Made by a program: the position numbers and the translations under genes. A DNA stretch of 64,000 nucleotides from Callorhinchus milii (taxonomy: Eukaryota): contig NW_024704742.1 of NCBI RefSeq assembly GCF_018977255.1, positions 51,276,001 to 51,340,000 on the forward strand, read 5' to 3'. Each line of letters starts with the position of its first letter. The first letter of the stretch is position 1. The notes beneath the pieces are model-generated. The model was not told the origin of the DNA, did not search any database, and saw only the letters and a list, made by a program, of their open reading frames with translations. Shown here piece by piece: positions 5,621 through 53,296 of this stretch.

Positions 5621-6639
5621 TGAAGTGATAAGGTTCGATATCAAATGCAACAATTATTTTATATGCCCTACAATTTTCTCAGTAACCAAGTGCAGATTAT
5701 TTCTCAAAGCCTTCATTAATAACAGACCTATTTAATCAACAATCAACACTGGCATTGACTGGCAGTCCACAAGAAGCATGTAAAAACAGGACCTGCCTCT
5801 CCCCTCCACACATGCTAAACAAAATCAATTCTAAACAGGAGTTTTAAAGGAATTTTCCAGAGCTGCAATCCAATTCATGTACGATCATCTGCACTACTCA
5901 ATTAGATTACTGACTTGAAGTCACTTCTTGGCACTCATTTCCAGAGTTGATATCCATTTAATGTACACATCATATGATTTTGCTTTATATTACATAAAGA
6001 CATTGAAAACCCATGAATGTATAAACAAACAAGAAACAAAAATTGCATTTGTATAGCACCTTTCACGTCGGGAGGACTTCCCAAGGCGCTGGACAATCGG
6101 TGTTTCAGTGCATATAAACAGCAGAGAACAAGAAACGGAATCACTTAGGGAACGATTACTACACGATTACTACCGGAGAGCAATCTGCCAATCGACTTAC
6201 AACCGGGTTCCTATTTACTGCTAGGTAAACAGAGTAAGGAAACTTGCAAAAGGTTTCACCCTGCCAGGAATTCAACCCGGGTCCTCTGGCTGTGAGGCAA
6301 GCTAACCACAGCCGTATGGGTCTACACGTCATACCTCCCTCTTTATCTGCAAAACCAATTTAAAAACCTTCTCTGACTGCGAATTTTGTCACCTCACTCT
6401 TAACCACCCTCAACTCTACCCAGCTCAAACTCCCACATCTTTGTAAAGCACTTTAAGATGTTCTCTTAGACAAATGAAAAAAGTATTTAAATGCAAATTA
6501 GTTTTGTAAGTGCTTAGTTTAACAAGTTTTGTCCTAACCCAATTACCCTTCCTAATAACCCATTCTAGTCAATCACCCTTAAAGTAGAGGAATATTGCCC
6601 ACTTACTGCCTAAATTTTCACTCCAAGGCCCTAAACTCG

Positions 6640-6853
6640 CTTTTCTACTGTTATTTAATTCACCAAGTAATGATAATGGAAATCATGTAATTTTAGTATA
6701 CCTTCTGATTGCTGGGGTTGGTATAGTTCAGGGCTGGAATTTATGAAAACCTTTTGATCCAACTCCTCTTCCATTGTTTGTCCAATAGAAAGTAGGCTCA
6801 AACGCCTCATTTTTAGAAGCCTTGGAGCACTACCACGAACTGTACCATCTACT
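6640..6853 (-). repeat. Local duplicate of 7533-7746 (3' part of the Y ORF)
   Basis: 214 bp with about 5 mismatches, one creating a premature TAA. Confidence 0.95.
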
Positions 6854-7529
6854 CTCTTCTGCTCTGTGAACTTGATGCATCTTTCTAGATTGTTTCCTGC
6901 ATCCTATTTAACATTTTACATACACTACATACTTCAATTACGTCCCCTGATTGCATGACTTCTGCCATCAACCCTGAAATGATTTGGTAATGCAGTCCAA
7001 TATAATATTGCACTTGATTATCGCTATTTCACACTGGATACACTATGAGCACTACATCATACATCAATGGATGCACTGTACTTAAGACACAGCGATTAAT
7101 GAGTTTGATTCATTGAAACACTATGTCCCACAAACAGCCAAAGGAGTGAAGGTCAAATTAATCTGGAGACAGTTTAACATCTCATGCAAAAGATGGCAGA
7201 TATAACAATGCAGCGGGTCTCAGCCTCTCAGTAAGAACTTGAACCAGTCTTCCGACTCAGAAGAGAGAGAAGAGGAAGCAGACAGGTTACAAGACAAATC
7301 CCAAAGCCACCTTACTCAACACCTCCTCCCATTTTGATCTAATTCCCCTTTACCACTTACTTTGCTTCTTTTTAGCAGTTACTGTGTAATGTTGTACACA
7401 AACAGAAAAACATTGTCACAATATCCACTGTGAGGACTACATCATACATCAATGTTTATATTGTACTTAGAAGCCAAATGTATACTATGTATCTCTGCAA
7501 TGTTAAGTCTCTTTAATTTAAACATTAAT

Positions 7530-7802
7530 TTACTTTTCTACTGTTATTTCATTCACCAAGTAATGATAATGGAAATCATGTAATTTTAGTATACCTTCTG
7601 ATTGCTGGGGTTGGTATAGTTCAGCGCTGGAATCCACGAAAACCTTTTGATCCAACTCCTCTTCCATTGTTTGTCCAATAGAAAGTAGGCTCAAACGCCT
7701 CATTTTTAGAAGCCTTGGAGCACTACCACGAACTGTACCATCTACTTCCAGAACTACATCCCCAGATATAGTAGCAGGTACGACACGCTTAAGAAAATTC
7801 AT
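7530..7802 (-). CDS. Orphan 90-aa ORF, Y-type (copy C), uninterrupted
   Basis: MNFLKRVVPATISGDVVLEVDG...; ATG overlaps the upstream TGA (ATGA); ATTAAA at 7517-7512; expression unknown. Confidence 0.55.
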   Translation of the reverse strand: MNFLKRVVPATISGDVVLEVDGTVRGSAPRLLKMRRLSLLSIGQTMEEELDQKVFVDSSAELYQPQQSEGILKLHDFHYHYLVNEITVEK

Positions 7803-8117
7803 TTTATAATTCTAATGGCCCAATAATAAAAATACAGAGCAGCGCCCGACTGCTGTTCCTCACATATTCGAGTACTCATGAAAACGTCCTTGAAGTTTAC
7901 GTAAAGGTATTTATAGTGGATTGCGGTGATGCAATGCTCATTGGGTGTTGTCAAAAAGCTGCAGATCAACCAACGGTTATCATCAAGGAACGTTTGGAAC
8001 TCGACCCCTCCTTCACGTGTAGAGTGATCGAAAATACAGTCAACCAATTGAGCACGTAGCTGAAGGTGTGTTTTAGCAACAAGGAAAGGTCAATCTACGT
8101 TTCAACAGAATGTACAT
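7799..8117 (-). pseudogene. Orphan ~105-aa ORF, X-type (copy C), one frameshift
   Basis: MYILLKRRLTF(fs)LVAKTHLQLRAQ..GGVEFQTFLDDNRWLICSFL..AIHYK..IIK*; CpG-rich relative to flanks; TATA-like run at ~8137-8146. Confidence 0.62.
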
Positions 8118-9482
8118 CTGGTCAGATCTGGACAGGATATATATAAACCCCTAATAATTTTAGGATCAGTTTACAATTTCCTAATTATTTCTTAATGCAA
8201 CACAGTCAGAGAGGGTGGAGCTCTACTCCTCCAACATTAAAAGCTGCTGTTCCCCAGAGATAACAAATATCATTTCATCAACAAGTTGAAGAAGCATATC
8301 AACATTCACAGTTCAAAAGTTCCACATATTTTATCTCTCCTACAAATTATTTCCCATATAACCTTTAATCCATGCAAAACTGTTCAAGGCAGAGAAACAT
8401 TAATGCAATAAGATGTTTTGCACATAAAGATTTTTTTAAAAAACAAAAAGGATTTTTCTTTATACAGAATGTCTGGTGAACTTAGCTAAGACAGCAGCAT
8501 GTAAAGTACAATTATGTGAAACAGGAATTATAATTTGTATTAAAGCAGTCAGTAATGTACTTTAAAAGAGCAATTCATGATTTGAATTCACTGAATAATT
8601 AAAATATTCAAAGAGCATTTTAATTGGAGGCCGAAATATTCTGTATTTGGAGAAAAAATCCAGTATTTATCGCACAAATTGCTGTTTTGCATATAGCAAA
8701 TATTTCTCGATATTTAAGCATGTAACTTGTTGGCAAAAATATTTTACTGGTGAATACTATTTACTTAAAGTATTAAACAACTTTATTATGACAAACCCTC
8801 TATAATTACAAGGCTCCTCTGTGGAAAAGGTTTCAATATCTGGGTCTTCAAAAAGCTAAGGACAAAGGACTTTTACACCAGGATAACATTCATTCTAGTG
8901 TTTAAGTATGGTTAAATAGGGTTTGATTTCTCAAAAATACTTTGAATTCATAACTATTTTGTGCTTCTGTTCCATATAATGTGTTGATTTAAGCCCCAAA
9001 AGTGGCACTGAGGTGGAGAAGTAAAAAGGGCTCACTTCAGAGGGATACAGAATATTCATACTTGAAATATCAACAGTGGAACAGGCAACAGTGGAATATC
9101 AAGTTTATGCCATGAATGAGAGAACCTGAAACTCAAGCATAACTGTTTATTTACAAATAAATGAAAAATTAGAAATAGAATAAACTCAGCAAACTTCCTC
9201 ATTATATAGTTTGTTTATACATCTTCTCCCACCACATCACCATATTGCTAGAAGCAGAGACCATACCATAATATTTACATTACTAATATTTATATTACTT
9301 GGAACCTCATTCTTGGGAGTGCCTCAGCTCTCTTATAAGGAGGCAGCAGAACAATTGCATGCATGAATTAAAACAAAGAAAGCTTCAGGTGCACCTTAAG
9401 TGAACGATAGGTTCATACAAAGTTTTGTATTTAAAAGTTGATCTAAATTGCTAGTACTCATAACACAGCTCAGCCCACTGAG

Positions 9483-12454
9483 AATATGTATGGAATATTA
9501 TTAAGCAGGTTTCCATAAACATTCAAAGAACAGGTGGAAATATTCCATTAGAAACTAAAAAATAATTCAACCTCTAACTTTAAATAAATTTAAAATTAAA
9601 TATGGAACTTACATGTGAAGCTAACAAAAAGCAACTACACCTGGTAGTTAATAGATTTACCCGTCAGATCAAAACAGTAGTACAGATATTATATAAACAG
9701 TATACATACAGTTCAAGGAACTAGTTTTCCATATATATTGATAGAGGCCTGTTGTACATTGCCCACGATGAAAGCACACAAGAATGAGTTGCAACTTTTT
9801 CTGCTGGATCGGGACAAAGAATAATGTAATAGAATTTATAACCTTATTCGAATAAATTATTTGATATCTGAGAAGAAAGTATATAGTCACAAATAAAACT
9901 TAGCTCCTGTGACTTTCCAAAATAGACAAAACTCAACTGCAAATTTAAATATAAACCTCATATGACATCTTAGAATTGCTCTAAGACCAAATAACATAAG
10001 GTAAATTTGTACTCTGAAACACAAAGCTCATAGGCACTAAAAGTACAACAGCAAACAGTGAAAAAGTCTTGAAATTTATATGTACAAATAGTAAGTCAGA
10101 CATGCGTTAATACAAAACAAAAAAACAATTTCTAAGTAATGTTACAACAGTCTAAATTTTTCAGGACTCTTTGCAAACATGTAGATTACATACCTTCCCA
10201 ATGAACTTGTTGCCAGAGGCTGACATGTGCAATCATTTGTGTGAGACAAGCAATACATATTGTAAATAATTTTGTATAGTCAAAATGCTGCTCGCTCGAG
10301 GGTTGTATTTCTTAACATAGCACCGATGAACAAATCTTATCCACTTGGCATTGCACATTTTTCTTAACAGCTAATAGGGCATCGAAGATGGAAACAAAAA
10401 ACTCTTAATGTTGAGAAAAGTCCTCTCAAGAATCTATCCATCATGCAGAGGCTTGCAAGAACTTCAGAACATCTGGCTCTTCATATGTAACATGTTCAGG
10501 CTATATAGGATTAGCATGAACCAGTCAACATTTAGTTCCACAAAGAATCAGGTTTTCTTCAGCTGGAAAGAAATTGTCAGGATTGATCTCATCTATTCAT
10601 ACAGTGTGAGCAACTCATATGATCTGATGAAAATATAGACAGACCTTAAAAAAAAACTACTCTGACCAACAGAGGTGATCTGTTTCTTGAGTTTTTATAG
10701 TTCAGTTACAAATTCTTAACTCGCTTTTGGGCTGAAAAATGAACATGAGGTTGGTTTCAGTTCCCTATCTCTGACCTGCTTACACCCCACTCCACCATCA
10801 GCCTCCTGCACATTCCTCATTCCCTCCTCCCCACCATCAGTAGCCATCCTTTTAACCACTGCACCCCAAGAAACTGGAACTCTCTACCTCAATCCCTCTG
10901 CCTCGTCTCCTTCAAATCACACCTGAAGACCTTATTCTTAAAACTGTGCCTATGGTCACCTCCCCCCTCTCCCTGGTTTGCCGTCAAGTTCTGCCACAGT
11001 TAAGTTCAGAGATGTTACCCTGCACGCAGGGCATTACATGAATGCAAATAGTTGCTGCTGTTGTCTCAATATTCTATAACCATGTACTGTTTTCATCAAA
11101 AAGAAAAATGATCCACATGATTTCTGAACAGAGTTTGAAAGGAGTCCCCACCATTGGTTGACTTGCATGTTTCACCGTAGAGTGATCTGTCTCCACTCTA
11201 TTTACAACATTTATTCTGACTCAGTGATTTGAACACCAAACTTGGTAACAGAAGGTCCTATTTTTTAATCCTAGCAGGGACCAGTCAGGTGTTCACTCTT
11301 TCAAGATCAATAAAATAAGTACTTGAGATTAAAACACTCTTATAGTTATCCAAAGCACTGTTGAAGACTGACCAGGCTAATTCATCAATTAATCTTGAAA
11401 GTATAGACATGTCCTCAGCCTTGCAAACCAAGATAGGATAGTCAATCCTTCATTCTTGTAGACTTTTAGTTACAAGTATCAATGGAACCCAGTTATGGAA
11501 GGAACCCTGTTTCAGGATAATAAACCCAAACATTGCATTATAATAGGGCACAAAACAAATGCTTAAATCCTAGGACGATATGTTTTCACCCAGAGAGTAG
11601 TTGGGAGATGAAAATTAGTCAGGTAGTGGAGGCGTAGTCCATTGTTAGTCTGTTAGTCACTGCTGGTGCAAACACTGATTTCAGGAACGATCTTAGGCTC
11701 CTAGAAATCACATTTGGTAAATCGGGCAGATTCAAGAAAGGTGTACTTAACTTCTTAGCGTACTTTGAAATGTATCATCAAAGGCATTAGTTTAGAAGAT
11801 CTCCAGAAACTTCTTGCCAACATCAGTTGTTCCCTTGTGTCAGCATCACTCAGTAAGTAGTGCTCTCACCTCAGTCAGAAGCCCCACATCAGGCTTCGAA
11901 CTCCATGCAGTCTAAGCTGACTGCAGTCCAGGGCCGCACTGCATTGGTGGAGGTTTCAGATGAAATACTAACCCAAGGTACCGCCTGCTTTGGCAGGTAT
12001 CCATAAACCAGTCACCCACCCAAACTCCCATGGAAAATCACATGCAACAAGTTCAACTAATGAAAGTTCAAGAATATTCAATTATCTTGATGAGCACCAC
12101 TTTTGTAAAAATAGCTACCACAAAGATCTCAACTTTAGTAAACATTTGTATGTGTTTACAAAAGCCAGAGAGTAGTTTCTTTTCTTTAGAATATTTTCAA
12201 AGCAACATCCCATGCATTGGACTATCTAGTGAATGGCAACAATCTGCAGTTATGTAACTTCTTTCATATTCGGTCAATTAAACTATAAAATTAATCTTTC
12301 TCCTTTACTGGTGATTATGGAACAGTGCACTATTAAAGCTTACAAGAAAGGATCAAAATGGACCAAATGGCTGATTTCAGTGCTGAAACATATTAGGATT
12401 GTAAGACTGTTGGACATATTCAGCGTACCAAATCTTCATATGGAGAAAACATAG
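9483..12454 (+). pseudogene. Heavily decayed cluster of X/Y-type ORFs (copy E), interrupted by L2, CR1 and SINE fragments
   Basis: Motif matches near 9690-9745, 10215-10275, 10408-10638 (open 76 aa), 11130-11175 and 12075-12135. Confidence 0.45.
10770..11063 (+). mobile_element. L2 3' fragment
   Basis: ctggaactctctacctc..cacctgaagacc..tgcaaatagttgctgctgttg tail. Confidence 0.8.
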
Positions 12455-17900: not shown

Positions 17901-18652
17901 TGGAACTAATAGAAAATATTTTTCATCAGTTGTCATACCTAGCCTAGGAAAGATCGTGGCTGTTCTATTTTTAATTCTCATCTTTCTTTACTTTGTCTAC
18001 GTTGCATTCATTTACTTATTGCAGTTATGCGATGGACTTGCATTGAAAAGTTCTTGAACAGCTATTAAGAAAAGACTGAGGCTCTTAAACTCTTGTTCCA
18101 AATTCAGCTCGTTTGGAACCAGATAAACAGCCAAAGGAATACCATGAAACCACATTAATCAAAAATGTTGGAACGGGCCCCAAGCTAGTAGTCAGTGATC
18201 ATGCCAGATAGGGTGGGCCTGCAAATCATCTGGCTGAAAACAAAACTAAAAGAACCCTTTAACTATCAAAAATTTAAGATCACAGAAACTAAAGAGGAAA
18301 TCTTCAAATTACCCTATCCAGCTGTCAAACTGGAGCTGCTATTGCAAAACAAAGCCTGTGAAAGCTCACGCCAGTGTTTCAAAAAAGTTTGAGCCACTGT
18401 GTAGATTATCTATCGGTCATATGAATGAACAGAGATTTGGCTGCCACACTGTCCACAATAACCAGAGTTGTACTGAGTGGTCAGCACCGTGGTCAGCACT
18501 AGAAGGTTCTGGCAGATCATTTAACAATGTGAGACTCCTGCTTTTTATGAAACAGGCAAGTTTTATGCATTTGTTAACTGGTCCTGTAAAGAAATAGAAA
18601 ATCGCCCAGATGTGAAGTACCCTAGGCGAACTACAACCAACACAGTTTAGTG

Positions 18653-20649: not shown

Positions 20650-21636
20650 ATGGAAACAAACAGGATAGGGAAGGAAACATCTGAAGAACACAACACCAAG
20701 GAAACAGAACAAAAGGGCACGGGAGAACATCTTGATGCTATAAAATGATGATACGGTTAATATTTAGATACAATAATACAAAATAGGCCAAATTATACTT
20801 CGTCCAAAAACTCTTGTGATTTCCTTTTAGTCATAGGAGACTTACGAGGCTATTGAGAAGTCTCCAACACAATTGCTTTTAGAAGTTGCTGCGATGTGGC
20901 ACGAGTCTTCTCACTTGTATATTTATCCACACCATTTTTCCTCAACATCGATCATGTTGACCTGAATGGTGCGCGTGCTTGTTTTATAGATTATAAATGT
21001 TTCAGGCATTTGCAGCAGTGCTTAAAGCTCTCTCAGGTGTCAGACAACAGAGCATCACTGGACTCCTGGAGCATCCTGAGCTTTGAAGAATTCTCAGGCC
21101 ATTTAAATCCAACTGATCTAACGACATCGGTTGACCCAATGGAACTAAGACGAGCAATATCATTCGCGCATTACAAACGATCTATTCCACTGATTCATGA
21201 TCAGGTTCATGATTTTTTTTCAAAAAAAAAAATGTTTAAAATGAAGTCGTTTGACTTGTTGGGTCGGTCATCAGGTGTCAAACAGCACGCCATGCTCCGA
21301 AGTGCCATCGAGAACGGGTTGGCCTGAGCCGTATATGGATCACCGCCTCGTGCTGCTAATGATTTCGTTATACACAGCTTAAACCTTGTGGCGGAGCGAC
21401 ACCCCCATGGTTTGGCTGGGACCCTGCGACTCAGTGCAAATGAAGTCCACAACCTGAAGTTGGACCAGAACTTTATAATCTGTTATACGCTTAAATTCCA
21501 ACTGACCAACTGTCAAGACGGTGTGGTAATTGGCACATCTCTATGGATCAACTCGAGTAAAAAGCTCGATCCATTCTACAAAAAAAGTACAGATTTTTTA
21601 AATATCATTTTAAACAAATTCGGAAACATCCTTTAA
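20650..21636 (+). pseudogene. Decayed intronless 328-aa orphan ORF with two X-type domains (copy D)
   Basis: One frame from TAAATG (ATG 20650) to TAA 21636 with 5 internal stops (TGA 20746, 20749, 20854, 21325; TAA 20758) and no frameshift; joins the listed ORFs 20896-21327 and 21388-21636; CpG-rich. Confidence 0.75.
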
Positions 21637-22689
21637 ATTTTTTTTTAAAATTAGTGACAGACCTAATCGCACAAAGCTGACAAATTTAAGAACCGGACAA
21701 CCTATGTACTATATTTGTAAACGTGTCTGCGCTAACTCTACAACAACAACAAGATTGCATTTATAGAGCGCTTTTCACGTCGGGAGGACATCCCAAGGCG
21801 CTGTACAGTTGGGTCAGGACCCGAGCAGTGGGGGAAATGGTCAGGGTGAGGGGAGGGAAGGGAGGGAGCGAGGAGGGGGTAGAGAGTCGAGCTGAAGACG
21901 CGAGGGGATTAACAGCAACAACAACTGGCATTTATATACTGGCTTTCATGTCGGAAGGGCATGCCAGAGGCTGAGGAACAATTAAAGAGGAACAATCTGA
22001 GGTCTAGGCTGGACTCACAGTGGGGAAGTGCAAGGAGCAATGAATTGACGATCTATCGCGTGCGTTTCCCCCTTTACACTGCTCAAGAGCTGAGAGATCA
22101 CATGGCCCACGATGTCAGGAAAGGTCACAGAGGGAGAGCGCCGTCACCCGTGTGATCTCTCCAGCCACAGACCCGGGTCTGGCTCACCCTAATGGCGTGT
22201 GTATACAGCATGCAAATCAAACAGTAGCGAGCGATAGCAATGTTCCCTTGACCTATTTAAAGCTGCACAAGCCCAATTTGTTTTTAAATTTGGATCTGCA
22301 GTCTGTTTTCAAACTAAGATTTGAAATTCTTTTCAAATTTTTTGAAATAAGATTTTTTTTTGAAATTAAGATTATTGAAGAAGATGTTTTGAGGTCTATA
22401 GCTTCCATTAGAGGTTTTATTCAGAGGTAAATCAAAGCTTCACATCTCGTCTTTGTGAACTCAAAGGGAAAAATAATACGAGCAAGACAAAGTTATACTC
22501 TAAAGATAAGAAATGCTTACTTTAGAACATCAAGATGAACAAAAAGCAAATTAAACAGCTACAGTAAAATTTTAGTTAAATGAAACTGACTGTGGATAAC
22601 AGAACTGTACTGCATTAAACGAATGAATTAAAAATCCTATTTTCTGGCTAAGCATATAATCCTCGCCAGTTGTCAGCCGGCCTCATCTC

Positions 22690-42215: not shown

Positions 42216-43109
42216 GTGCGTAATTCATCCAACCTAAAAACTGAGATGCTGCTCAACATCAGTTTGGAATGGAATCTGAATTTGCAGAGAGCTTAATTGC
42301 TCCGAGATACAAGCCACGCAAAGAGCACCACACAAATGTAAGTTGTTGTTGGAATTAGTGACAAAGAAGTTAAAGTTAGCCCCTGCCTTAACTGAGTACA
42401 TTGAGAAATGTAATTACAATGAGGCTCGGTCGAGTGTAACACTAACACACATCAGGACCATACTCACCAGCAAATGTGCACACGACTATACCCAGAACAG
42501 CAGAACAACCTCAACAAGCACACAAAGGTCTGACAACCATATGTGAACGGGCAAACATCATACCCAAACCAGACAAGAATGTACATACATAAACTTCAGA
42601 ACGAGACCTAAAATCTCACCCAAACAAACAAGAGTCATACAGAGAAACCATAAACATCTTACATACCACAGATCAGTGAGTTGATGGAAGCTTACACACC
42701 GACACATACACACACACACACACACATCAAGGCTCGGCAGTGTGCACATACATGCATAGACACACCACATGAGGGTCACATCAGAGCCAGTACAGTGTAA
42801 ACATTCTCAAGCACACATCACATACAGGACAGTGAATACACACGAGTCATGACAGTGTAAACATTGACATACGCATTTCAAAACCAGACCCAGGGCAGTC
42901 TAAACACTGACAGGCGCACACACCAGAGCACAGGCACAAGACAGTGAGACAGTGAGCGCGCAGAAGCCAGGACAGGGACAACCCGGTATGTAAAGTATAA
43001 CTCGAGTTTTGTAACGGTCTGGAATCAGTGACAAAGGCAGAGAAAGCAAAGAAGGCCCCGACTGAGTGCAATTATAGAGAAATACACAATGGGGCCTCGA
43101 CCAGAGCAA

Positions 43110-45990
43110 CACACACAGCCCCACACACACACACACACCCACACACACACCCACACACACACAGCCCCACACACACACACACACACCCACCCACACACAC
43201 ACCCCCCACCCCCAAACACACCTCCCCCCCCACCACACCCCCCCCACCACACCCCCCACACACACACCCCACACACACACACACCCCCACACACACCCAC
43301 CCCCACACCACACCCCCCCACCACACCCCCCCCACCACACCCCCCCACCACACCCCCACACCACACCCCCACACCCACACACACACACACACCCACACAC
43401 ACCCCACACACACCCCCACACACACACACACACACACCCACACACACACACACCCCACACACACACCCACACCCACACACACACACACACCCCCACACAC
43501 ACACACACACACACCCACACCCACACACACACACACACCCACACACACACACACACCCACACACACAGCCCCACATACACAGCCCCACATACACACACAC
43601 CCACACCCCCCCACACACACAGCCCCACACACACACACCCCACACACACCGCCCACCCCCACACACACCTCCCCCCCCACCACACCCCCACCACACCCCA
43701 CACACACACCCACACACACACCCACACACCCCCACACACACACACACACACACCCCACCCCCCCACCCCCCCACACACCCACCCCCCCCACCCCCCCACA
43801 CACCCACCCCCCACACACCCCACACCCACCCCCCCACACACCCACCCCCCCACACACCCACCCCCCCACACACACCCACCCCCCACACCCACCCCCCCAC
43901 ACACACCCACACCCCCCACACACACACACCCCCCACACACACACACACACCCCCCACACACACACACACCCCCCACACACACACACCCACACACACACAC
44001 CCCCACACACACACACCCCCACACACACACACCCCCCAACACACACACACCCCCAACACACACACACAGCCCCAACACACACACACCCCCAACACACCAC
44101 ACCCCCCAACACACACACCCCCCAACACACACACCCCAACACACACACCCCCCACACACACACCCCAACACACACACCCCCCAACACACACACCCCCAAC
44201 ACACACACCCCCCCCCAACACACACCCCCCACAACACACACACACCCCCCAACACACACACACACACCCCCCAACACACACACACACACACCCCCCAACA
44301 CACACACACACACACCCCCAACACACACACACACACACCCCCAACACACACACACACACCCCCCAACACACACACACACACCCCCAACACACACACACCT
44401 CCCCCCAACACACACACACACACACACACACCCCCCAACACACACACACACACTCCCCAACACACACACACACACCCCCCAACACACACACACACACCCC
44501 CCAACACACACACACACACCCCCCCAACACACACACACACCCCCCAACACACACACACACCCCCCAACACACACACACCCCCCAACACACACACACCCCC
44601 CAACACACACACACCCCCCAACACACACACACCCCCCAACACACACACACACACTTGACACTCACACCCACCCCCCCACACACCCACCCCCCACACACCC
44701 ACCCCCCCACACACCCACCCCCCCACACACCCACCCCCCCACACACCCACCCCCCCACACACCCACCCCCCCACACACCCACCCCCCACACACCCACCCC
44801 CCCACACACCCACCCCCCCCACACACACCCCCCCCCACACCCACCCCCCCCCACACCCACCCCCCCCCACACCCCCCCCCCACACACACCCCCCCCCACA
44901 CACCCCCCCCCACACACACCCCCCCCACACACACACCCCCCCCCAACACACACACACTCCCCCCCAACACACACACACACCTCCCCCCAACACACACACA
45001 CACACCCCCCAACACACACACACACACCCCCAACACACACACACCCCCACACACACACACCCCCACACACACACACCCCCACACACACACACCCCCACAC
45101 ACACACACCCCCACACACACACACCCCCAACACACACACCCCCAACACACACACACCCCCAACACACACACACACCCCCAACACACACCAACACACATCC
45201 CCCAACACACACCCCAACACACACAGGCACACACACCCCAACACACACACACACACCCCCAACACACACACACACACCCCCCAACACACACACACACCCC
45301 CCAACACACACACACCCCAACACACACACAGCCCCAACACACACACCCCAACACACACACACAGCCCCAACACACACACACAGCCCCAACACACACACAG
45401 CCCCAACACACACACACCCCAACACACACACACACCCCAACACACACACACACCCCAACACACACACAATTCCAACACACACACACACCCCCAACACACA
45501 CACACCCCCCAACACACACACACCCCCCAACACACACACACACACCCCAACACACACACACACACTTGACATTCACACACACCCCCCAACCCACACACAC
45601 ACCCCAACACACACACCCCCAACACACCCCCACACACACACACACCCCCCAACACACACACCCCCCAACACACACACCCCCCAACACACACACAACCCCA
45701 ACACACACACACACCCCAACACACACACAACCCCAACACACACACACACCCCAACACACACACACACACCCCAACACACACACACACACCCCAACACACA
45801 CACACATCCCAACACACACACACACCCCCAACACACACACACACCCCAACACACACACACACACCCCAACACACACACACACCCCCCACACACACTCCAC
45901 ATACACACACACCCCCAACACACACACACACACACCCCCCCACACACACACACCCCCCAACACACACACCCCCCCACTTGACACTCACAC
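43110..45990. repeat. Complex (CA)n/Cn low-complexity array with CCCCAACACACA subunits
   Basis: About 2.9 kb almost entirely C and A on the + strand. Confidence 0.98.
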
Positions 45991-46305
45991 ACAGACGCTG
46001 GACGGAGCTCCCCTCAGGTTAAGGAGCTGCTGTCACGCTCTCCGGCTCTTTGTTCACTCTCACTCAGAGCCCGAGGCAGCCGGAGAGCCGCGCACACACA
46101 CACACACACACGCAGAGCCCCTCTCACCACCACCACCACCACCAGCAGCAGCAGCTTTGTTCGCTCTCCTCCCGCCGTCAGCTTTTCACGCCGGCGAGTG
46201 AGCGCCTGAAACGAGGTCCGGGACCGCGGTCCATCGCCTCCCGTCCCCCCACCACCACCACCGCCGCCGCCACCGCCGCGTGTAGCAGAGCAGAGCGGCT
46301 CGTAC

Positions 46306-46520: not shown

Positions 46521-46943
46521 CTCACCGCTGTGGCTCCCAGTCCCGCCCTCGGCCTCGCCTGATTGGTCCGCTGACGTCACCGCGCCAGGGCACGCCGCTC
46601 GCAGCCCTGGCCGGCGATTGGCCAACGGCGGCATCGATCATGTACGTCATAGCCTCGCGGCAGCTACTTCCGGAAGGGTGAGGAGCGCTTCCTGGCGGTG
46701 AGAAGGCGGGAACCCTGTCGCGGTACATGGAGGCTGGAATGGCCATCGCTTCCTGTGCTTGTCACGTGACTGTCTTCCGGTACACGGGGGAGGTGTGAGG
46801 ATCATGGGCGGCGGCGGTGGTTTCACTTCCGAGGTCAGGCGCCTGGCGCAGCAGCCACTGCTTCCGGGGAGGGGCGCGAGCTGGAGTCTGTTGGAGGAGA
46901 AGCTCGAGGTCGCGGCTCGTGCTTTACGCTGTAACGGTCGGAG

Positions 46944-47000
46944 ATGCAGTCAGAGTCCGACGGTTTGAGCGGCGCGGAGCGCGGCTCACCCTCACCACAG
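46944..47000 (+). CDS. OCIAD1: OCIA domain-containing protein 1, first coding exon (MQSESDGLSGAERGSPSPQ)
   Basis: ATG in the CpG island; cag|gtactg donor; phase 0 matches the next exon; poorly conserved sequence. Confidence 0.65.
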
Positions 47001-47002
47001 GT

Positions 47003-47352
47003 ACTGCCAGGCCCGGGGAGGGGGCACCGCCAGGCCCGGGGAGGGGGCACCGCCAGGCCCGGGGAGGGGGCACCGCCAGGCCCGGGGAGGGGGCACCGCC
47101 AGGCCCGGGGAGGGGGCACTGCCAGGCCCGGGGAGGGGGCACCGCCAGGCCCGGGGAGGGGCACTGCCAGGCCCGGGGAGGGGGCACTGCCAGGCCGGGG
47201 AGGGGGCACCGCCAGGCCCGGGGAGGGGGCACCGCCAGGCCCGGGGAGGGGCACTGCCAGGCCCGGGGAGGGGGCACTGCCAGGCCCGGGGAGGGGGCAC
47301 TGCCAGGCCCGGGGAGGGGGCACTGCCAGGCCCGGGGAGGGGGCACTGCCCA
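47003..47352 (+). repeat. 22-bp G-rich minisatellite, about 16 units
   Basis: (gccaggcccggggagggggcacY)n. Confidence 0.97.
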
Positions 47353-47449
47353 GGCGGGCGAGGCGAGCCAGGCAGGCAGAGCCGAGCAGGCGGGAGAGAC
47401 CGCGACAGAGCTGTGAGGAGCACAACAACCACCGCAACAACAACAACAA

Positions 47450-49332: not shown

Positions 49333-49417
49333 GATCCAATGAGTGGTTCGTACATTCCTACGGAAGATGAAAAGAGGGTCTTCAGAGAATGCAATGAAGA
49401 GAGTTTCTATTATAGAT
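49333..49417 (+). CDS. OCIAD1: OCIAD1 exon (DPMSGSYIPTEDEKRVFRECNEESFYYR)
   Basis: OCIA domain start; ag/gt boundaries. Confidence 0.96.
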
Positions 49418-49444
49418 GTAAGAATTTATTACTAATTTACTAAA

Positions 49445-50022
49445 AATTTACTATCCTTAATCCTGCTACTGTATAAATCATTGGTGAGACTATATTTAGA
49501 GTACTCTGTACAGTTCTGGTCGTCGCAGTACAAAAAAGATATTGGAGAAATGGAGAAGATACAGAGGAGGGCAACCAAAATGATTGAGGGAATGGAGGGA
49601 CTGGACTTTCAGGAATAAATTGGGCATGTTCATCCTGGAAAAGAGAAGATTGAGAGGTGACATGATTGCTATCTTTACGACTCTAACGGCTAGGCAATAT
49701 AGATCATGACAGGCTGCTTCAATTTGTCCAGAATAGTAAAATCAGAGGGCACGGCCTGCGATTGAAATTCAGAACAAATCTATGCAAACACTATTTCAGT
49801 GAGCAAATAGTGAACCTGTGGAACAGGCTCACTAGGGAGACAGTTTAAGCAGGATGTGTTGATTCTTTCAGACATGGATTAGATAGTTTTCTTTTAGGAA
49901 ATAACATTATGGGATTCAGTACATGGGTAGTTTGGGACATATGTGCACCGACCGCCAGGAAGGTGGAAGGTGAACTAGATGGACCTTGGTCTTTTTTTGT
50001 CTAGCATTTCTTATGTTCTTAT
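49445..50022 (+). mobile_element. CR1 3' fragment
   Basis: LYKSLVRLYLEYSVQFWS and LEKRRLRGDMI remnants. Confidence 0.88.
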
Positions 50023-51200: not shown

Positions 51201-53166
51201 GTAAGTGAGATTAATATTTATTTACTTAAGCAACACAGAAACTGTGATTTGAACAGCATGCATCTGTACTGCTATTCAGGGTTGTTAATTCAACAGTTGA
51301 GTACAAGAATCTTCCATAATTTATTTTGTATCCAAAAAACATTAAAAGTTGTGCATCATCTGTAACTTCTAGAGCAAAACTACCAGATTACAATTTAACC
51401 GTGTGTATATATGGCTGGTGAGCTATGTAACCTTAAAAAAAAATAGATTTAGAACCATAAAAAATTACGGCACCGAAGAAGGCAATTTGGGCTACTATGT
51501 ATTTGGTGGCTCTTTGAAAGACTATTCAGTCCCATTTACCTTCCTTTTTCTCATACCCTGCAGATTATTCCTCTATAGATATATCTAGTTCCTTCTTGAA
51601 AGCTAATTGGATCCTACTTTGACCATCACGTCTGGAAGGACGTTCCACTCTATAGACATGAAAAGCGCTATATCAAATGCAAGGATCATTATACCAAAAA
51701 TACTCCTTATTGCTCTCTTGCTAACTAGCGTAAATTGATACTATCTAGTTACTGACATCTATCATATTTTCTCTGTTCCAATGAAAATAGGCACAATTTC
51801 TCTAGTTTCTACTGACAGATGAAAGCACAATGGTATTGTTTTGGTAAATCTCTGATTTGTTTGACAGGGTTTTAAAACGAAAATGTATTATTTGACTGAG
51901 GAGGGTATAAAATTCATAAAATATAATTTGTTTCCAGCATACAACAATTGAGGGGGATATGATTCCAGTTCAAAATAGTGAGAGCCTGAGATGATGTAGG
52001 TAATTTTGGACAGTGAAGACAAAATTGAAGAATACACATTTAAATTGAACTAGTTTACCTACAAAATCATCACTTTACAGAAAATACTGTGAAGCGGTTT
52101 GAGACATCTTCCTGGCATAAAAAGCACTATGATAATAGTTGCGTTTGATTGTCTCAGGTGAGGCTAGAAATTAGGTTTTATTTTCCCCTCCTGCATGGTA
52201 GTGAATCAGTGGAAAAAGTCTGCACAAATGTAAACTAAACTGAGTCAATGTCTGCTACAAAACTGAGCTAAACAAATAAATGGATTTTGCAGGATTAAGA
52301 TGCTTCAAGATATGACATGTCAGTTTGAACAGTAGAGATTTGGAAATGGTTGAATATGCTAAAATAGTATATTTTCTTTGAGGAAAGTGTATTTGTACGT
52401 CTGCTTCAAAGTTTATTGTGTAGTATTTGGTGATCTAAAAGTTACTTTATATCTCCAATAAGCAATAGCAGGAGGTCTGCCAAAGATGGAAGAGTACATC
52501 GACAGTGTGCATGTAGCCAGGTGGCGTTAGAGCCAGATACAAGCAAATACCAGAAGGTAGTAAAATAAATATTACCAATTAAAAGTATTTCACCCAAACA
52601 TCCCAAAGGAGGTGGGGGGTGAAATTGGTGCGGTTTTAATTCACTCTATGTTCCCAAATGTAAATAAACTACTCAATTGCATTTATGGAAAGAGAATATG
52701 TTATGTTATTGCTGAATGCAGGAATTGCTAAGAATGTGGAATAATGTGTGCAGCTTGGATCACCTAATATTATGAAAGATATTATTGTCCTTGATAGGTG
52801 AGCAACCAGGATGATAACTTGGGAATCTGTAATGAGGAAAAATTAAGGAATTTGAGCTTCTCTCCAGAAAACAGGAGATTGTGGATAATAGGAAATTGTG
52901 GATTAAGAAATAAATTAAATGAGGTTGGTGTAGAAACGTTCCTGCCACCCTTTCCAAATATTTTATTTTCTACTGGATTATTGAATTGGAATGAGGGAAG
53001 GGGAAAAAGTAACAGCCACAATACAAAAGTGGTTTGCAGACGAATTATCTTTCATAGCTGGAGAGAAAATGAGAGTAGCGAACTACATCTGCTGTGCATA
53101 ATAAATGGAATAGAGAATATTTGAAAGGATGGTTACTTATTACTGTTGGATGGATTTCTTTCTCAG

Positions 53167-53296
53167 TTGCTGGTGCTTGTGGTTATCTGGCAGGAAAGAT
53201 TTCCTACATGAAGATATGTCAGGCAAAGTTCATGAAACTGGAAAATTCACCATTAGCAGAAGCTATACGGACAGGAAGAAGAATCCACCCATCACA
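53167..53296 (+). CDS. OCIAD1: OCIAD1 exon (FAGACGYLAGKISYMKICQAKFMKLENSPLAEAIR..)
   Basis: OCIA domain C-terminus; donor gtcagt; phase 2. Confidence 0.95.

What the first reader, a model, noticed from the sequence alone, without database searches (positions are those of the whole stretch)
7512..8146. Cassette C: best-preserved compact bicistronic unit (TATA-like run, X, ATGA overlap, Y, ATTAAA)
Within about 630 bp there is a TATA-like run, a 105-aa ORF broken by a single-base frameshift, an overlapping intact 90-aa ORF and a polyA-like signal. It retains many CpGs, unlike its flanks, which suggests a younger or protected insertion. It is the best query for identifying the source.
Basis: partly seen in the sequence, partly recalled or inferred. 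Interest (0 to 1): 0.78.

Follow-up and report, generated by a model that had tools for sequence, protein, structure and literature searches.

The report
Orphan two-gene insert in FRYL intron
A single-copy 0.6-kb patch in a likely FRYL intron of what is probably a chimaera (cartilaginous fish) holds two overlapping reading frames that match no protein in the databases searched, and is most likely a fairly recent, probably inactive scrap of a still unknown DNA virus, though chance frames in an unmethylated host element are not excluded.

Summary
All the parts are there, on the minus strand: TATATATA (8145), ATG (8117), a 96-codon open frame X out of register with that ATG, an ATGA overlap, a 90-aa ORF Y, and ATTAAA (7517). 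CpG o/e is 0.78-0.92 against about 0.2 in the flanks. Five other sequencing runs carry the same break, so it is no assembly error.

Y looks coding. Of 151 comparable ORFs it ranks first for codon-position GC bias and for CpG, and it alone has both a TATA box and a polyA signal (criteria chosen post hoc). X's bias is not significant. CpG patches (11 of 80 random loci) and abutting frames (10 places in 720 kb) are not rare alone.

The patch is single-copy apart from a 214-bp local copy of part of Y. It lies in a likely FRYL 5' intron. No homologue was found by sequence, profile, language-model or fold search.

Best reading (about 0.6): foreign coding DNA, probably from a nuclear DNA virus, inserted recently and now decaying. 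'Bicistronic' is unsupported: no TURBS motif, Y has its own TATA box, and X's ATG sits at the expected cap site. A second orphan coding-like patch lies 13 kb away. The donor remains unidentified.

The parts
8138..8145 (-). TATA-box consensus (TATATATA), 28 nt upstream of the ATG at 8117
   Evidence: the TATAWAWR motif occurs 0.53 per kb per strand in unique DNA here
8073..8117 (-).
   Evidence: same letters in contigs of runs X1-X5
7799..8089 (-). Frame X: 96 codons open, ends in TGA overlapping Y's ATG; no homologue; codon bias not significant
8060..8093 (-). Splice-acceptor-like motif (branch-like TTGAC, 69% pyrimidine, AG-free, CAG) leading into frame X; an alternative to the frameshift reading
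   Evidence: such motifs occur 0.39 per kb per strand, so this is weak
7908..7915 (-). Second TATA consensus (TATAAATA) inside X, 113 nt upstream of Y's ATG; candidate own promoter of Y
7799..7802 (-). ATGA stop/start overlap in the context TATAAAATGA
7530..7802 (-). ORF Y, 90 aa, intact; GC1/GC2/GC3 = 0.59/0.30/0.30; low-confidence all-beta model; no homologue
7512..7517 (-). ATTAAA polyA-signal variant 13 nt after Y's stop; no poly(A) run follows; abuts the end of an old host duplicate (7375-7511)
6640..6853 (-). Young 214-bp local copy of Y codons 20-90 (5 differences in this assembly, 4 codons changed, one to a stop)
7793..8056 (+). 88-codon open frame exactly opposite X, no ATG until codon 48; probably the shadow of X, but the strand is not settled by composition

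Best explanation
This single-copy, CpG-rich patch is likely a short piece of foreign protein-coding DNA, probably two tandem small genes of an unsampled nuclear DNA virus or virus-like mobile element, that would have been pasted into a probable FRYL intron by DNA-break repair fairly recently and is likely now decaying without function. SHOWN: the layout; single copy; same orientation as the FRY-family exons; CpG retention; codon-position bias of Y; presence with the same break in five other runs; a later 214-bp local copy of part of Y; no detectable relatives. INFERRED: foreign origin (compact ATGA overlap, CpG not yet eroded, no host paralogue); a nuclear DNA-virus donor (TATA boxes and polyA signal retained, so a DNA fragment rather than a cDNA; no poly(A) run or target-site duplication, so not a LINE retrocopy); insertion by repair; youth (no more than about 5% drift if neutral); no function. 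In the donor, Y would more likely have been read from its own TATA box at 7915 on a transcript sharing the polyA signal with X (nested 3'-coterminal genes, as recalled for herpes-like viruses) than by termination-reinitiation.
For: Y periodicity chi2 24.1, 0 of 2000 shuffles. GC1-GC2 of 0.289 is the highest of 410 stop-free control frames. Among 151 ATG ORFs of at least 80 aa in unique AT-rich DNA, Y is first for GC1-GC2 (3 of 151 reach 0.2), first for surrounding CpG (2 of 151 reach 0.7) and the only one with both TATA (8 of 151) and polyA signal (20 of 151). Amino-acid composition z=2.4, just below LINE relics. The frame pair arises in 0-1 of 5000 shuffles. CpG o/e sits at about the 99th percentile of 5370 local unique windows, in a genome whose likely species has 69-72% CG methylation and hypermethylated gene bodies (PMC5437953, passages). 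Single copy. An old host duplicate (6992-7129 / 7375-7511; 0 of 400 controls score as high) stops at 7511, next to the ATTAAA. No convincing target-site duplication and no poly(A) run. Under neutrality 558 open nt survive with p 0.30 at 2% drift, 0.05 at 5% and 0.003 at 10% (assumed rates). The four codons that differ between the two Y copies all change the residue.
Against: No homologue ties it to any virus, and no viral hallmark gene lies in the flanks. X has no significant coding signal (p=0.19; 8% of control frames match its GC pattern), and the opposite strand looks as coding. Language-model recognition is below the level of known families for both (X 1213, Y 2057; threshold 2300). AlphaFold single-sequence models have pLDDT about 51. 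CpG-retaining AT-rich patches occur in 11 of 80 random loci. An ATGA-overlapping pair of 97/107 codons occurs in L135 with no coding signal, so real DNA yields this layout more often than my Markov null (1 in 6 Mb). Y's chi2 is reached by 7 of 410 frames, itself included. The joint criteria were chosen after seeing Y. The upstream junction could not be located. No outgroup with an empty site was available.
Confidence: 0.6

Rival explanations
1. It is host non-coding DNA: a small unmethylated regulatory patch (enhancer or alternative promoter in the FRYL intron) that kept its CpGs, and the frames, TATA runs and ATTAAA are coincidences picked out of AT-rich sequence.
For: Such CpG patches are in 11 of 80 random loci. 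Abutting frames of at least 75/75 codons occur at 10 places in 720 kb. AWTAAA occurs 2.1 and TATAWAWR 0.53 per kb per strand. No homologues anywhere. X shows no significant bias. The longest single open frame is not significant (p=0.12).
Against: Y is top of 151 control ORFs on two measures and alone has both signals. The pair is almost never produced by shuffles of the patch itself. The CpGs lie within the two frames and none lies between 8100 and 8630, upstream of the TATA, where a promoter island would be expected to extend.
Confidence: 0.22
2. It is an expressed gene of the host, either co-opted or lineage-specific: Y is made from the TATA at 7915, or the patch is spliced onto FRYL 5' exons through the acceptor at 8060 and acts as an early terminal exon using ATTAAA.
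For: Same strand as FRYL. Y is intact. There is an acceptor-like motif leading into frame X. No differences in 7717-8500 in runs X1-X5, against 5-8 in the adjacent 6806-7562.
Against: No splice joint or transcript end at the patch in the three RNA-guessed runs, whose contigs run through it like the flanks (contigs cannot show absence). The variants seen in Y change residues (7634, 7637), though they cannot be assigned to one copy. The invariant stretch may only reflect haplotype structure. Acceptor-like motifs are common.
Confidence: 0.1
3. The donor was cellular, a bacterium, phage or compact-genome parasite, and ATGA is a prokaryote-type translational coupling; the TATA and ATTAAA are incidental.
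For: ATGA overlaps are common in prokaryotes (PMC6728339, start of abstract in listing). The sizes fit many two-gene operons. No CpG depletion.
Against: Nothing in 1.84 billion representatives for X, in the 5.8-billion-protein word search for X and Y, in GTDB genomes, in metagenomes (one search gave only a 28-aa pattern-seeded match in a non-ATG frame), in phages (Y) or plasmids, or in PHROGs and NCBIfam (only E 0.13). No Shine-Dalgarno-like run before either ATG (read).
Confidence: 0.08

Closest known systems
Non-retroviral endogenous viral elements in vertebrate genomes (PMC11089739, passages; PMC11521997, listing and supplement search)
   Same: Single-copy, fixed, gene-sized fragment in host non-coding DNA with one broken and one open frame; such elements are reported from cartilaginous fish, including a short hepadnavirus element in Callorhinchus milii.
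   Different: Those are defined by similarity to a known virus; this has none. No hallmark gene lies nearby.
Nackednavirus smORF1/smORF2 (PMC5604429, PMC12474061, PMC12691608, passages)
   Same: Two small tandem ORFs of about 100-140 aa of unknown function in a fish DNA virus; proto-nackednavirus smORFs have no known homologues.
   Different: There the pair lies between DR1 and the core ORF, followed by core and polymerase. Here no such ORF follows Y and a polyA signal does. No sequence match was found.
Calicivirus and influenza B termination-reinitiation (TURBS; PMC10275272 section 9, PMC5972666 passages)
   Same: AUGA stop/start overlap between two ORFs.
   Different: The UGGGA core of motif 1 is absent on the sense strand of 7480-8200. 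These are RNA viruses, whereas this patch keeps TATA boxes.
Nested 3'-coterminal gene pairs of large nuclear DNA viruses such as herpesviruses and alloherpesvirus-derived Teratorn (layout recalled; my paper search for it returned nothing)
   Same: Tandem compact genes, each with a TATA box, one polyA signal, no CpG depletion.
   Different: No homology, no core genes, no transposase, single copy, 0.6 kb.
Repair-mediated (templated) duplications of nearby DNA (earlier finding e1-9367838, an unchecked AI note)
   Same: The 214-bp near-identical copy 893 bp away, without a repeat signature, fits this kind.
   Different: It explains only the copy of Y, not the origin of X and Y.

Membership tests
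Non-retroviral endogenous viral element | Detectable homology to a viral protein | tested here: inconclusive
   No hit (one 9-residue seed match in an unrelated ORF tail). The sensitive search covered X only; divergent accessory genes would be missed.
Non-retroviral endogenous viral element | Integrated in the host chromosome and inherited | tested here: met
   On a 139-Mb contig; contigs of runs X1-X5 join it to both flanks.
Non-retroviral endogenous viral element | Empty orthologous site in a related species | not testable with these tools
   No eukaryotic relatives are held; only organism A held the sequence.
LINE-mediated retrocopy | Poly(A) tail after the polyA signal | tested here: not met
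   No A-run downstream of 7512.
LINE-mediated retrocopy | Target-site duplication | tested here: inconclusive
   Only 7-9-mers that do not sit at both edges; the upstream edge is unknown.
LINE-mediated retrocopy of a host gene | Parent gene elsewhere in the genome | tested here: not met
   Own-genome searches with DNA, X, Y and the opposite frame found only the locus, its 214-bp copy and one E=0.41 match in a CpG-poor collagen-like intron; these searches give lower bounds.
TURBS-type bicistronic unit | AUGA or UAAUG stop/start overlap | tested here: met
   7802-7799.
TURBS-type bicistronic unit | UGGGA motif 1 upstream of the overlap | tested here: not met
   Absent; motif as given in PMC5972666.
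Nackednavirus-derived element | Core and polymerase ORFs downstream of the two small ORFs | tested here: not met
   No Pfam family at E<=1 in 12 flanking frames (6340-7530, 8100-9600) read with X at stops.
Nackednavirus-derived element | Similarity to smORF2 proteins | tested here: inconclusive
   No direct comparison was possible; general searches were blank.
Transposable element | Multiple dispersed copies, terminal repeats or a transposase/RT domain | tested here: not met
   Single copy; no Pfam hit.
Functional host protein-coding gene | Transcript and purifying selection | tested here: inconclusive
   No listed holder is on record as RNA; RNA-guessed contigs show no joints; too few variants, and no orthologue for dN/dS.

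The most novel reading that the evidence does not exclude
Cassette C and the second orphan patch 13 kb away (20745-21633, plus strand, 291 codons with two TGA stops) are fossil fragments of one undescribed family of DNA viruses of cartilaginous fish. Both start an ORF in the same TATAAAATGA stop/start context and keep their CpGs. X, Y and that third protein would be founding members of protein families absent from the collections searched, usable as baits to find the virus in chimaera and shark reads.
Probability: 0.2. Interest if true: 0.65.

Novelty: new member of a known kind. Interest (0 to 1): 0.36.

Why it matters
Screens for endogenous viruses rely on similarity to known viral proteins, so fragments from unsampled viruses stay invisible. 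If this patch is such a fragment, it shows that CpG retention plus codon-position bias plus compact gene layout can flag them without homology. It would also give protein baits for viruses of chimaeras. It does not point to a new mechanism, and nothing shows a function in the host. If the non-coding rival is right, it is an ordinary intronic CpG patch.

Tried and rejected
Homology searches, all blank. Word search of 5.8 billion proteins for X and Y at near lengths only (longer and shorter forms were not searched). phmmer of X against 1.84 billion representatives (Y was not run, cap 1). ESM Atlas. Pfam, PHROGs, NCBIfam. PDB sequences. IMG/VR, metagenome and GTDB scans. Phages for Y and plasmids for X and Y. 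Exact look-up, 0 of 5. Rfam over 6300-9600. Earlier findings by place, sequence and words.

Weak hits rejected. L007: a 9-residue seed in the tail of an unrelated ORF. L150-L153: a 28-aa seeded match in a frame without ATG (2 of 4 inspected). L004: E 0.41, collagen-like intron, no Y behind it. L068 and L069: a repeat and a chance match for the second patch.

Folds. Both single-sequence models have pLDDT about 51. Foldseek gave no match at E<=0.001 (viral; PDB for Y). VIA for X: best Z 7.2, rmsd 3.5, 92 aligned (phage neck protein), tied with PilO; this is within the range the tool calls common. VIA for Y was not obtained.

Ideas tested and dropped. The old duplicate 6992-7129 / 7375-7511 as decayed Y paralogues: a 'DVVL.VD' resemblance, but p=0.14 and 0.77. 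That duplicate continuing beyond 8146, which would fix the upstream junction: p=0.15 and 0.27. Assembly error or contamination: rejected. X and Y related to each other: score 25, no.

Expression: no RNA holder listed; this is no evidence either way.

Literature. No paper on this locus turned up in searches. 'Callorhinchus' and 'milii' were absent from the supplementary files searched for PMC11089739 (12 files) and PMC11521997 (files 9 and 12 not searched). The closed supplements of bioRxiv 10.1101/2025.04.19.649669 (listing only) could list the locus.

Full report
CONTEXT. The window is G000:C1:51,276,001-51,340,000 of a 991.5-Mb genome. FRY-family exons (PF14222) lie on the minus strand 86-104 kb beyond the patch. 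OCIA-domain exons lie on the plus strand at window 49348 and 53163, and a CpG island lies at about 46-47 kb. fryl is the conserved neighbour of ociad1 (PMC5943604, passages). The patch is therefore very likely in a 5' intron of FRYL, in sense orientation; the exon map itself was not built. Earlier scan notes label this genome as elephant shark (unchecked AI notes); I did not verify the species by a call.

OBSERVATION. On the minus strand lie TATATATA from 8145 and an ATG at 8117 that opens 14 codons. A frame out of register with it is open from 8089 to 7802 (96 codons, X). X ends in the TGA of an ATGA whose ATG starts Y (7802-7530, 90 aa), and ATTAAA follows at 7517. CpG o/e is 0.78 over 7512-8146 and 0.92 over 7691-8110, against 0.21 and 0.17-0.20 in the flanks; no CpG lies between 8100 and 8630. 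Of the 8 runs laid, 5 (X1-X5, two studies) have contigs spanning the break with no other letters and no gaps. Their contigs also bridge the 7512 edge. The patch is chromosomal and the break is shared.

COPIES. DNA and protein searches of the genome find only the locus and a 214-bp, 98% copy of Y codons 20-90 at 6640-6853. The two copies differ at 5 bases here, changing 4 codons, one to a stop. In X1-X5 they collapse into one contig of about double depth, so they are near-identical in those individuals. This looks like a young local repair copy or conversion. An older host duplicate (6992-7129 / 7375-7511; 0 of 400 controls as high) ends at 7511, next to the ATTAAA, which may mark the downstream junction. 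The upstream junction was not found. There is no poly(A) run and no convincing target-site duplication.

IS IT CODING? Y has GC1/2/3 of 0.59/0.30/0.30 and chi2 24.1, reached by 0 of 2000 shuffles. In 720,648 bp of unique DNA (the 264-kb neighbourhood plus 80 evenly spaced 10-kb loci), 7 of 410 stop-free frames reach that chi2, Y included and several others exon-like; none but Y reaches its GC1-GC2. Among 151 ATG ORFs of at least 80 aa, Y is first for GC1-GC2, first for surrounding CpG, and alone has both a TATA box 20-130 nt upstream and a polyA signal just downstream. I chose these criteria after seeing Y, so the joint rarity is overstated. Y's amino-acid composition scores z=2.4 (reference frequencies recalled). 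The frame pair appears in 0 of 5000 and 1 of 5000 dinucleotide shuffles and once in 6 Mb of Markov sequence.

AGAINST. X has chi2 8.6 (p=0.19). The plus-strand frame exactly opposite it (7793-8056, 88 codons) scores as well or better (purines at position 1: 0.62 against 0.52), so X's strand rests mainly on the ATGA junction. Real DNA gives abutting pairs of at least 75/75 codons at 10 places (13 rows collapsed), 4 with exact ATGA, one of them AT-rich and without coding signal (L135). AT-rich CpG-retaining patches are in 11 of the 80 random loci. Language-model recognition is low (X 1213, Y 2057) and both AlphaFold models have pLDDT about 51.

HOMOLOGUES. None. Searches covered 5.8 billion proteins by shared words at near lengths and 1.84 billion representatives by phmmer, for X only. 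They also covered Pfam, PHROGs, NCBIfam, PDB sequences, IMG/VR, metagenomes, GTDB genomes, phages (Y only) and plasmids. Fold searches gave nothing significant. Twelve flanking frames have no Pfam family, which excludes an adjacent polymerase, capsid or transposase of known type.

HOW IT MOST LIKELY CAME ABOUT. A methylated vertebrate intron erodes CpG (PMC5437953 passages: 69-71.6% CG methylation, gene bodies hypermethylated). A single-copy patch that keeps CpG, has a coding signature and has no host parent is most simply foreign and young. Under neutrality 558 open nt imply no more than about 5% drift (assumed rates). Retained TATA boxes and the missing poly(A) tail point to a DNA fragment rather than a cDNA. 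Tight overlap with polymerase II signals points to a nuclear DNA virus or virus-like element. Entry by break repair is inferred from the lack of transposon or LINE marks. All of this is inference; no donor was found.

THE BICISTRONIC CLAIM. It is not supported. The TURBS core UGGGA (PMC5972666, passages; PMC10275272 section 9) is absent. A consensus TATAAATA at 7915 could drive Y on its own, with a shared polyA signal; such a transcript would still carry two upstream ATGs (7879, 7865). The upstream TATA is 28 nt from X's ATG, so with the usual spacing of about 30 nt (recalled) the cap site falls on that ATG. An acceptor-like motif ending at 8060 offers a spliced entry into X instead of a frameshift, but such motifs are common.

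A SECOND PATCH. The only other AT-rich patch with CpG o/e of 0.8 or more in the 264-kb neighbourhood is at about 20.8-21.8 kb. It has a plus-strand frame of 291 codons with two TGA stops (2 of 3000 shuffles) and an ATG at 20745 in the same TATAAAATGA stop/start context as Y, though out of register with that long frame. It is single-copy and without homologues, and its codon bias is not significant. It is unrelated to X and Y in sequence. A common donor is possible but unshown.

COMPARISON. It works like a non-retroviral endogenous viral element (PMC11089739, passages), but the defining feature, viral homology, is not shown. Nackednavirus smORF pairs resemble it in size, but the core and polymerase ORFs are missing. 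It fails the tests for a LINE retrocopy, a transposon and a TURBS unit.

VERDICT. Observation confirmed; interpretation partly supported. Odds: foreign, probably viral, inert fragment 0.60; coincidental frames in a host CpG patch 0.22; expressed host or co-opted gene 0.10; cellular donor 0.08. Novelty: new member of a known kind, provisionally. Interest 0.36.

Noticed in passing
window 20745-21633 (+), also 21961-22152 and 22044-22427 (+): Second single-copy, AT-rich, CpG-retaining patch: 291 codons with only two TGA stops (2 of 3000 shuffles), a TATAAAATGA stop/start context like Y's, interrupted downstream by a young SINE-like repeat at about 21740-21892; no homologue found.
   Followed up: partly
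window 6640-6853 vs 7533-7746: The 214-bp copy ends exactly at Y's last sense codon. The copies differ at 5 bases in this assembly but collapse together in five other runs, so the differences are polymorphic or being homogenised.
   Followed up: partly
window 6992-7129 vs 7375-7511: Old local duplicate (core of 47-56 bp at 80-83% identity) whose second copy ends immediately beside the ATTAAA.
   Followed up: yes
window 6806-7562 vs 7717-8500: Other individuals differ from this assembly at 5-8 sites in the first 755 bp but at none in the adjacent 784 bp; haplotype structure or constraint.
   Followed up: no
window 42900-46000 and 46921-47432: About 3 kb of CA-rich degenerate repeat and a 23-bp minisatellite flank the CpG island at 46-47 kb between the FRYL-like and OCIAD1-like genes.
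   Followed up: no
window 49348-49452 and 53163-53252 (+): OCIA-domain (OCIAD1-like) exons, head-to-head with the FRY-family gene.
   Followed up: yes
window 18201-18392 (+): 63-aa Lys/Glu-rich ORF in unique sequence that reads protein-like; not searched in this frame.
   Followed up: no
L135:2235-2848 (+): ATGA-overlapping open frames of 97 and 107 codons without CpG excess or codon bias; used as a chance control.
   Followed up: partly
L128:8641-9156 (+): Another AT-rich CpG-retaining unique patch with a 159-codon open frame and some codon bias (chi2 20.7); may be an exon, not identified.
   Followed up: no
window 14154: The single N of the window.
   Followed up: no
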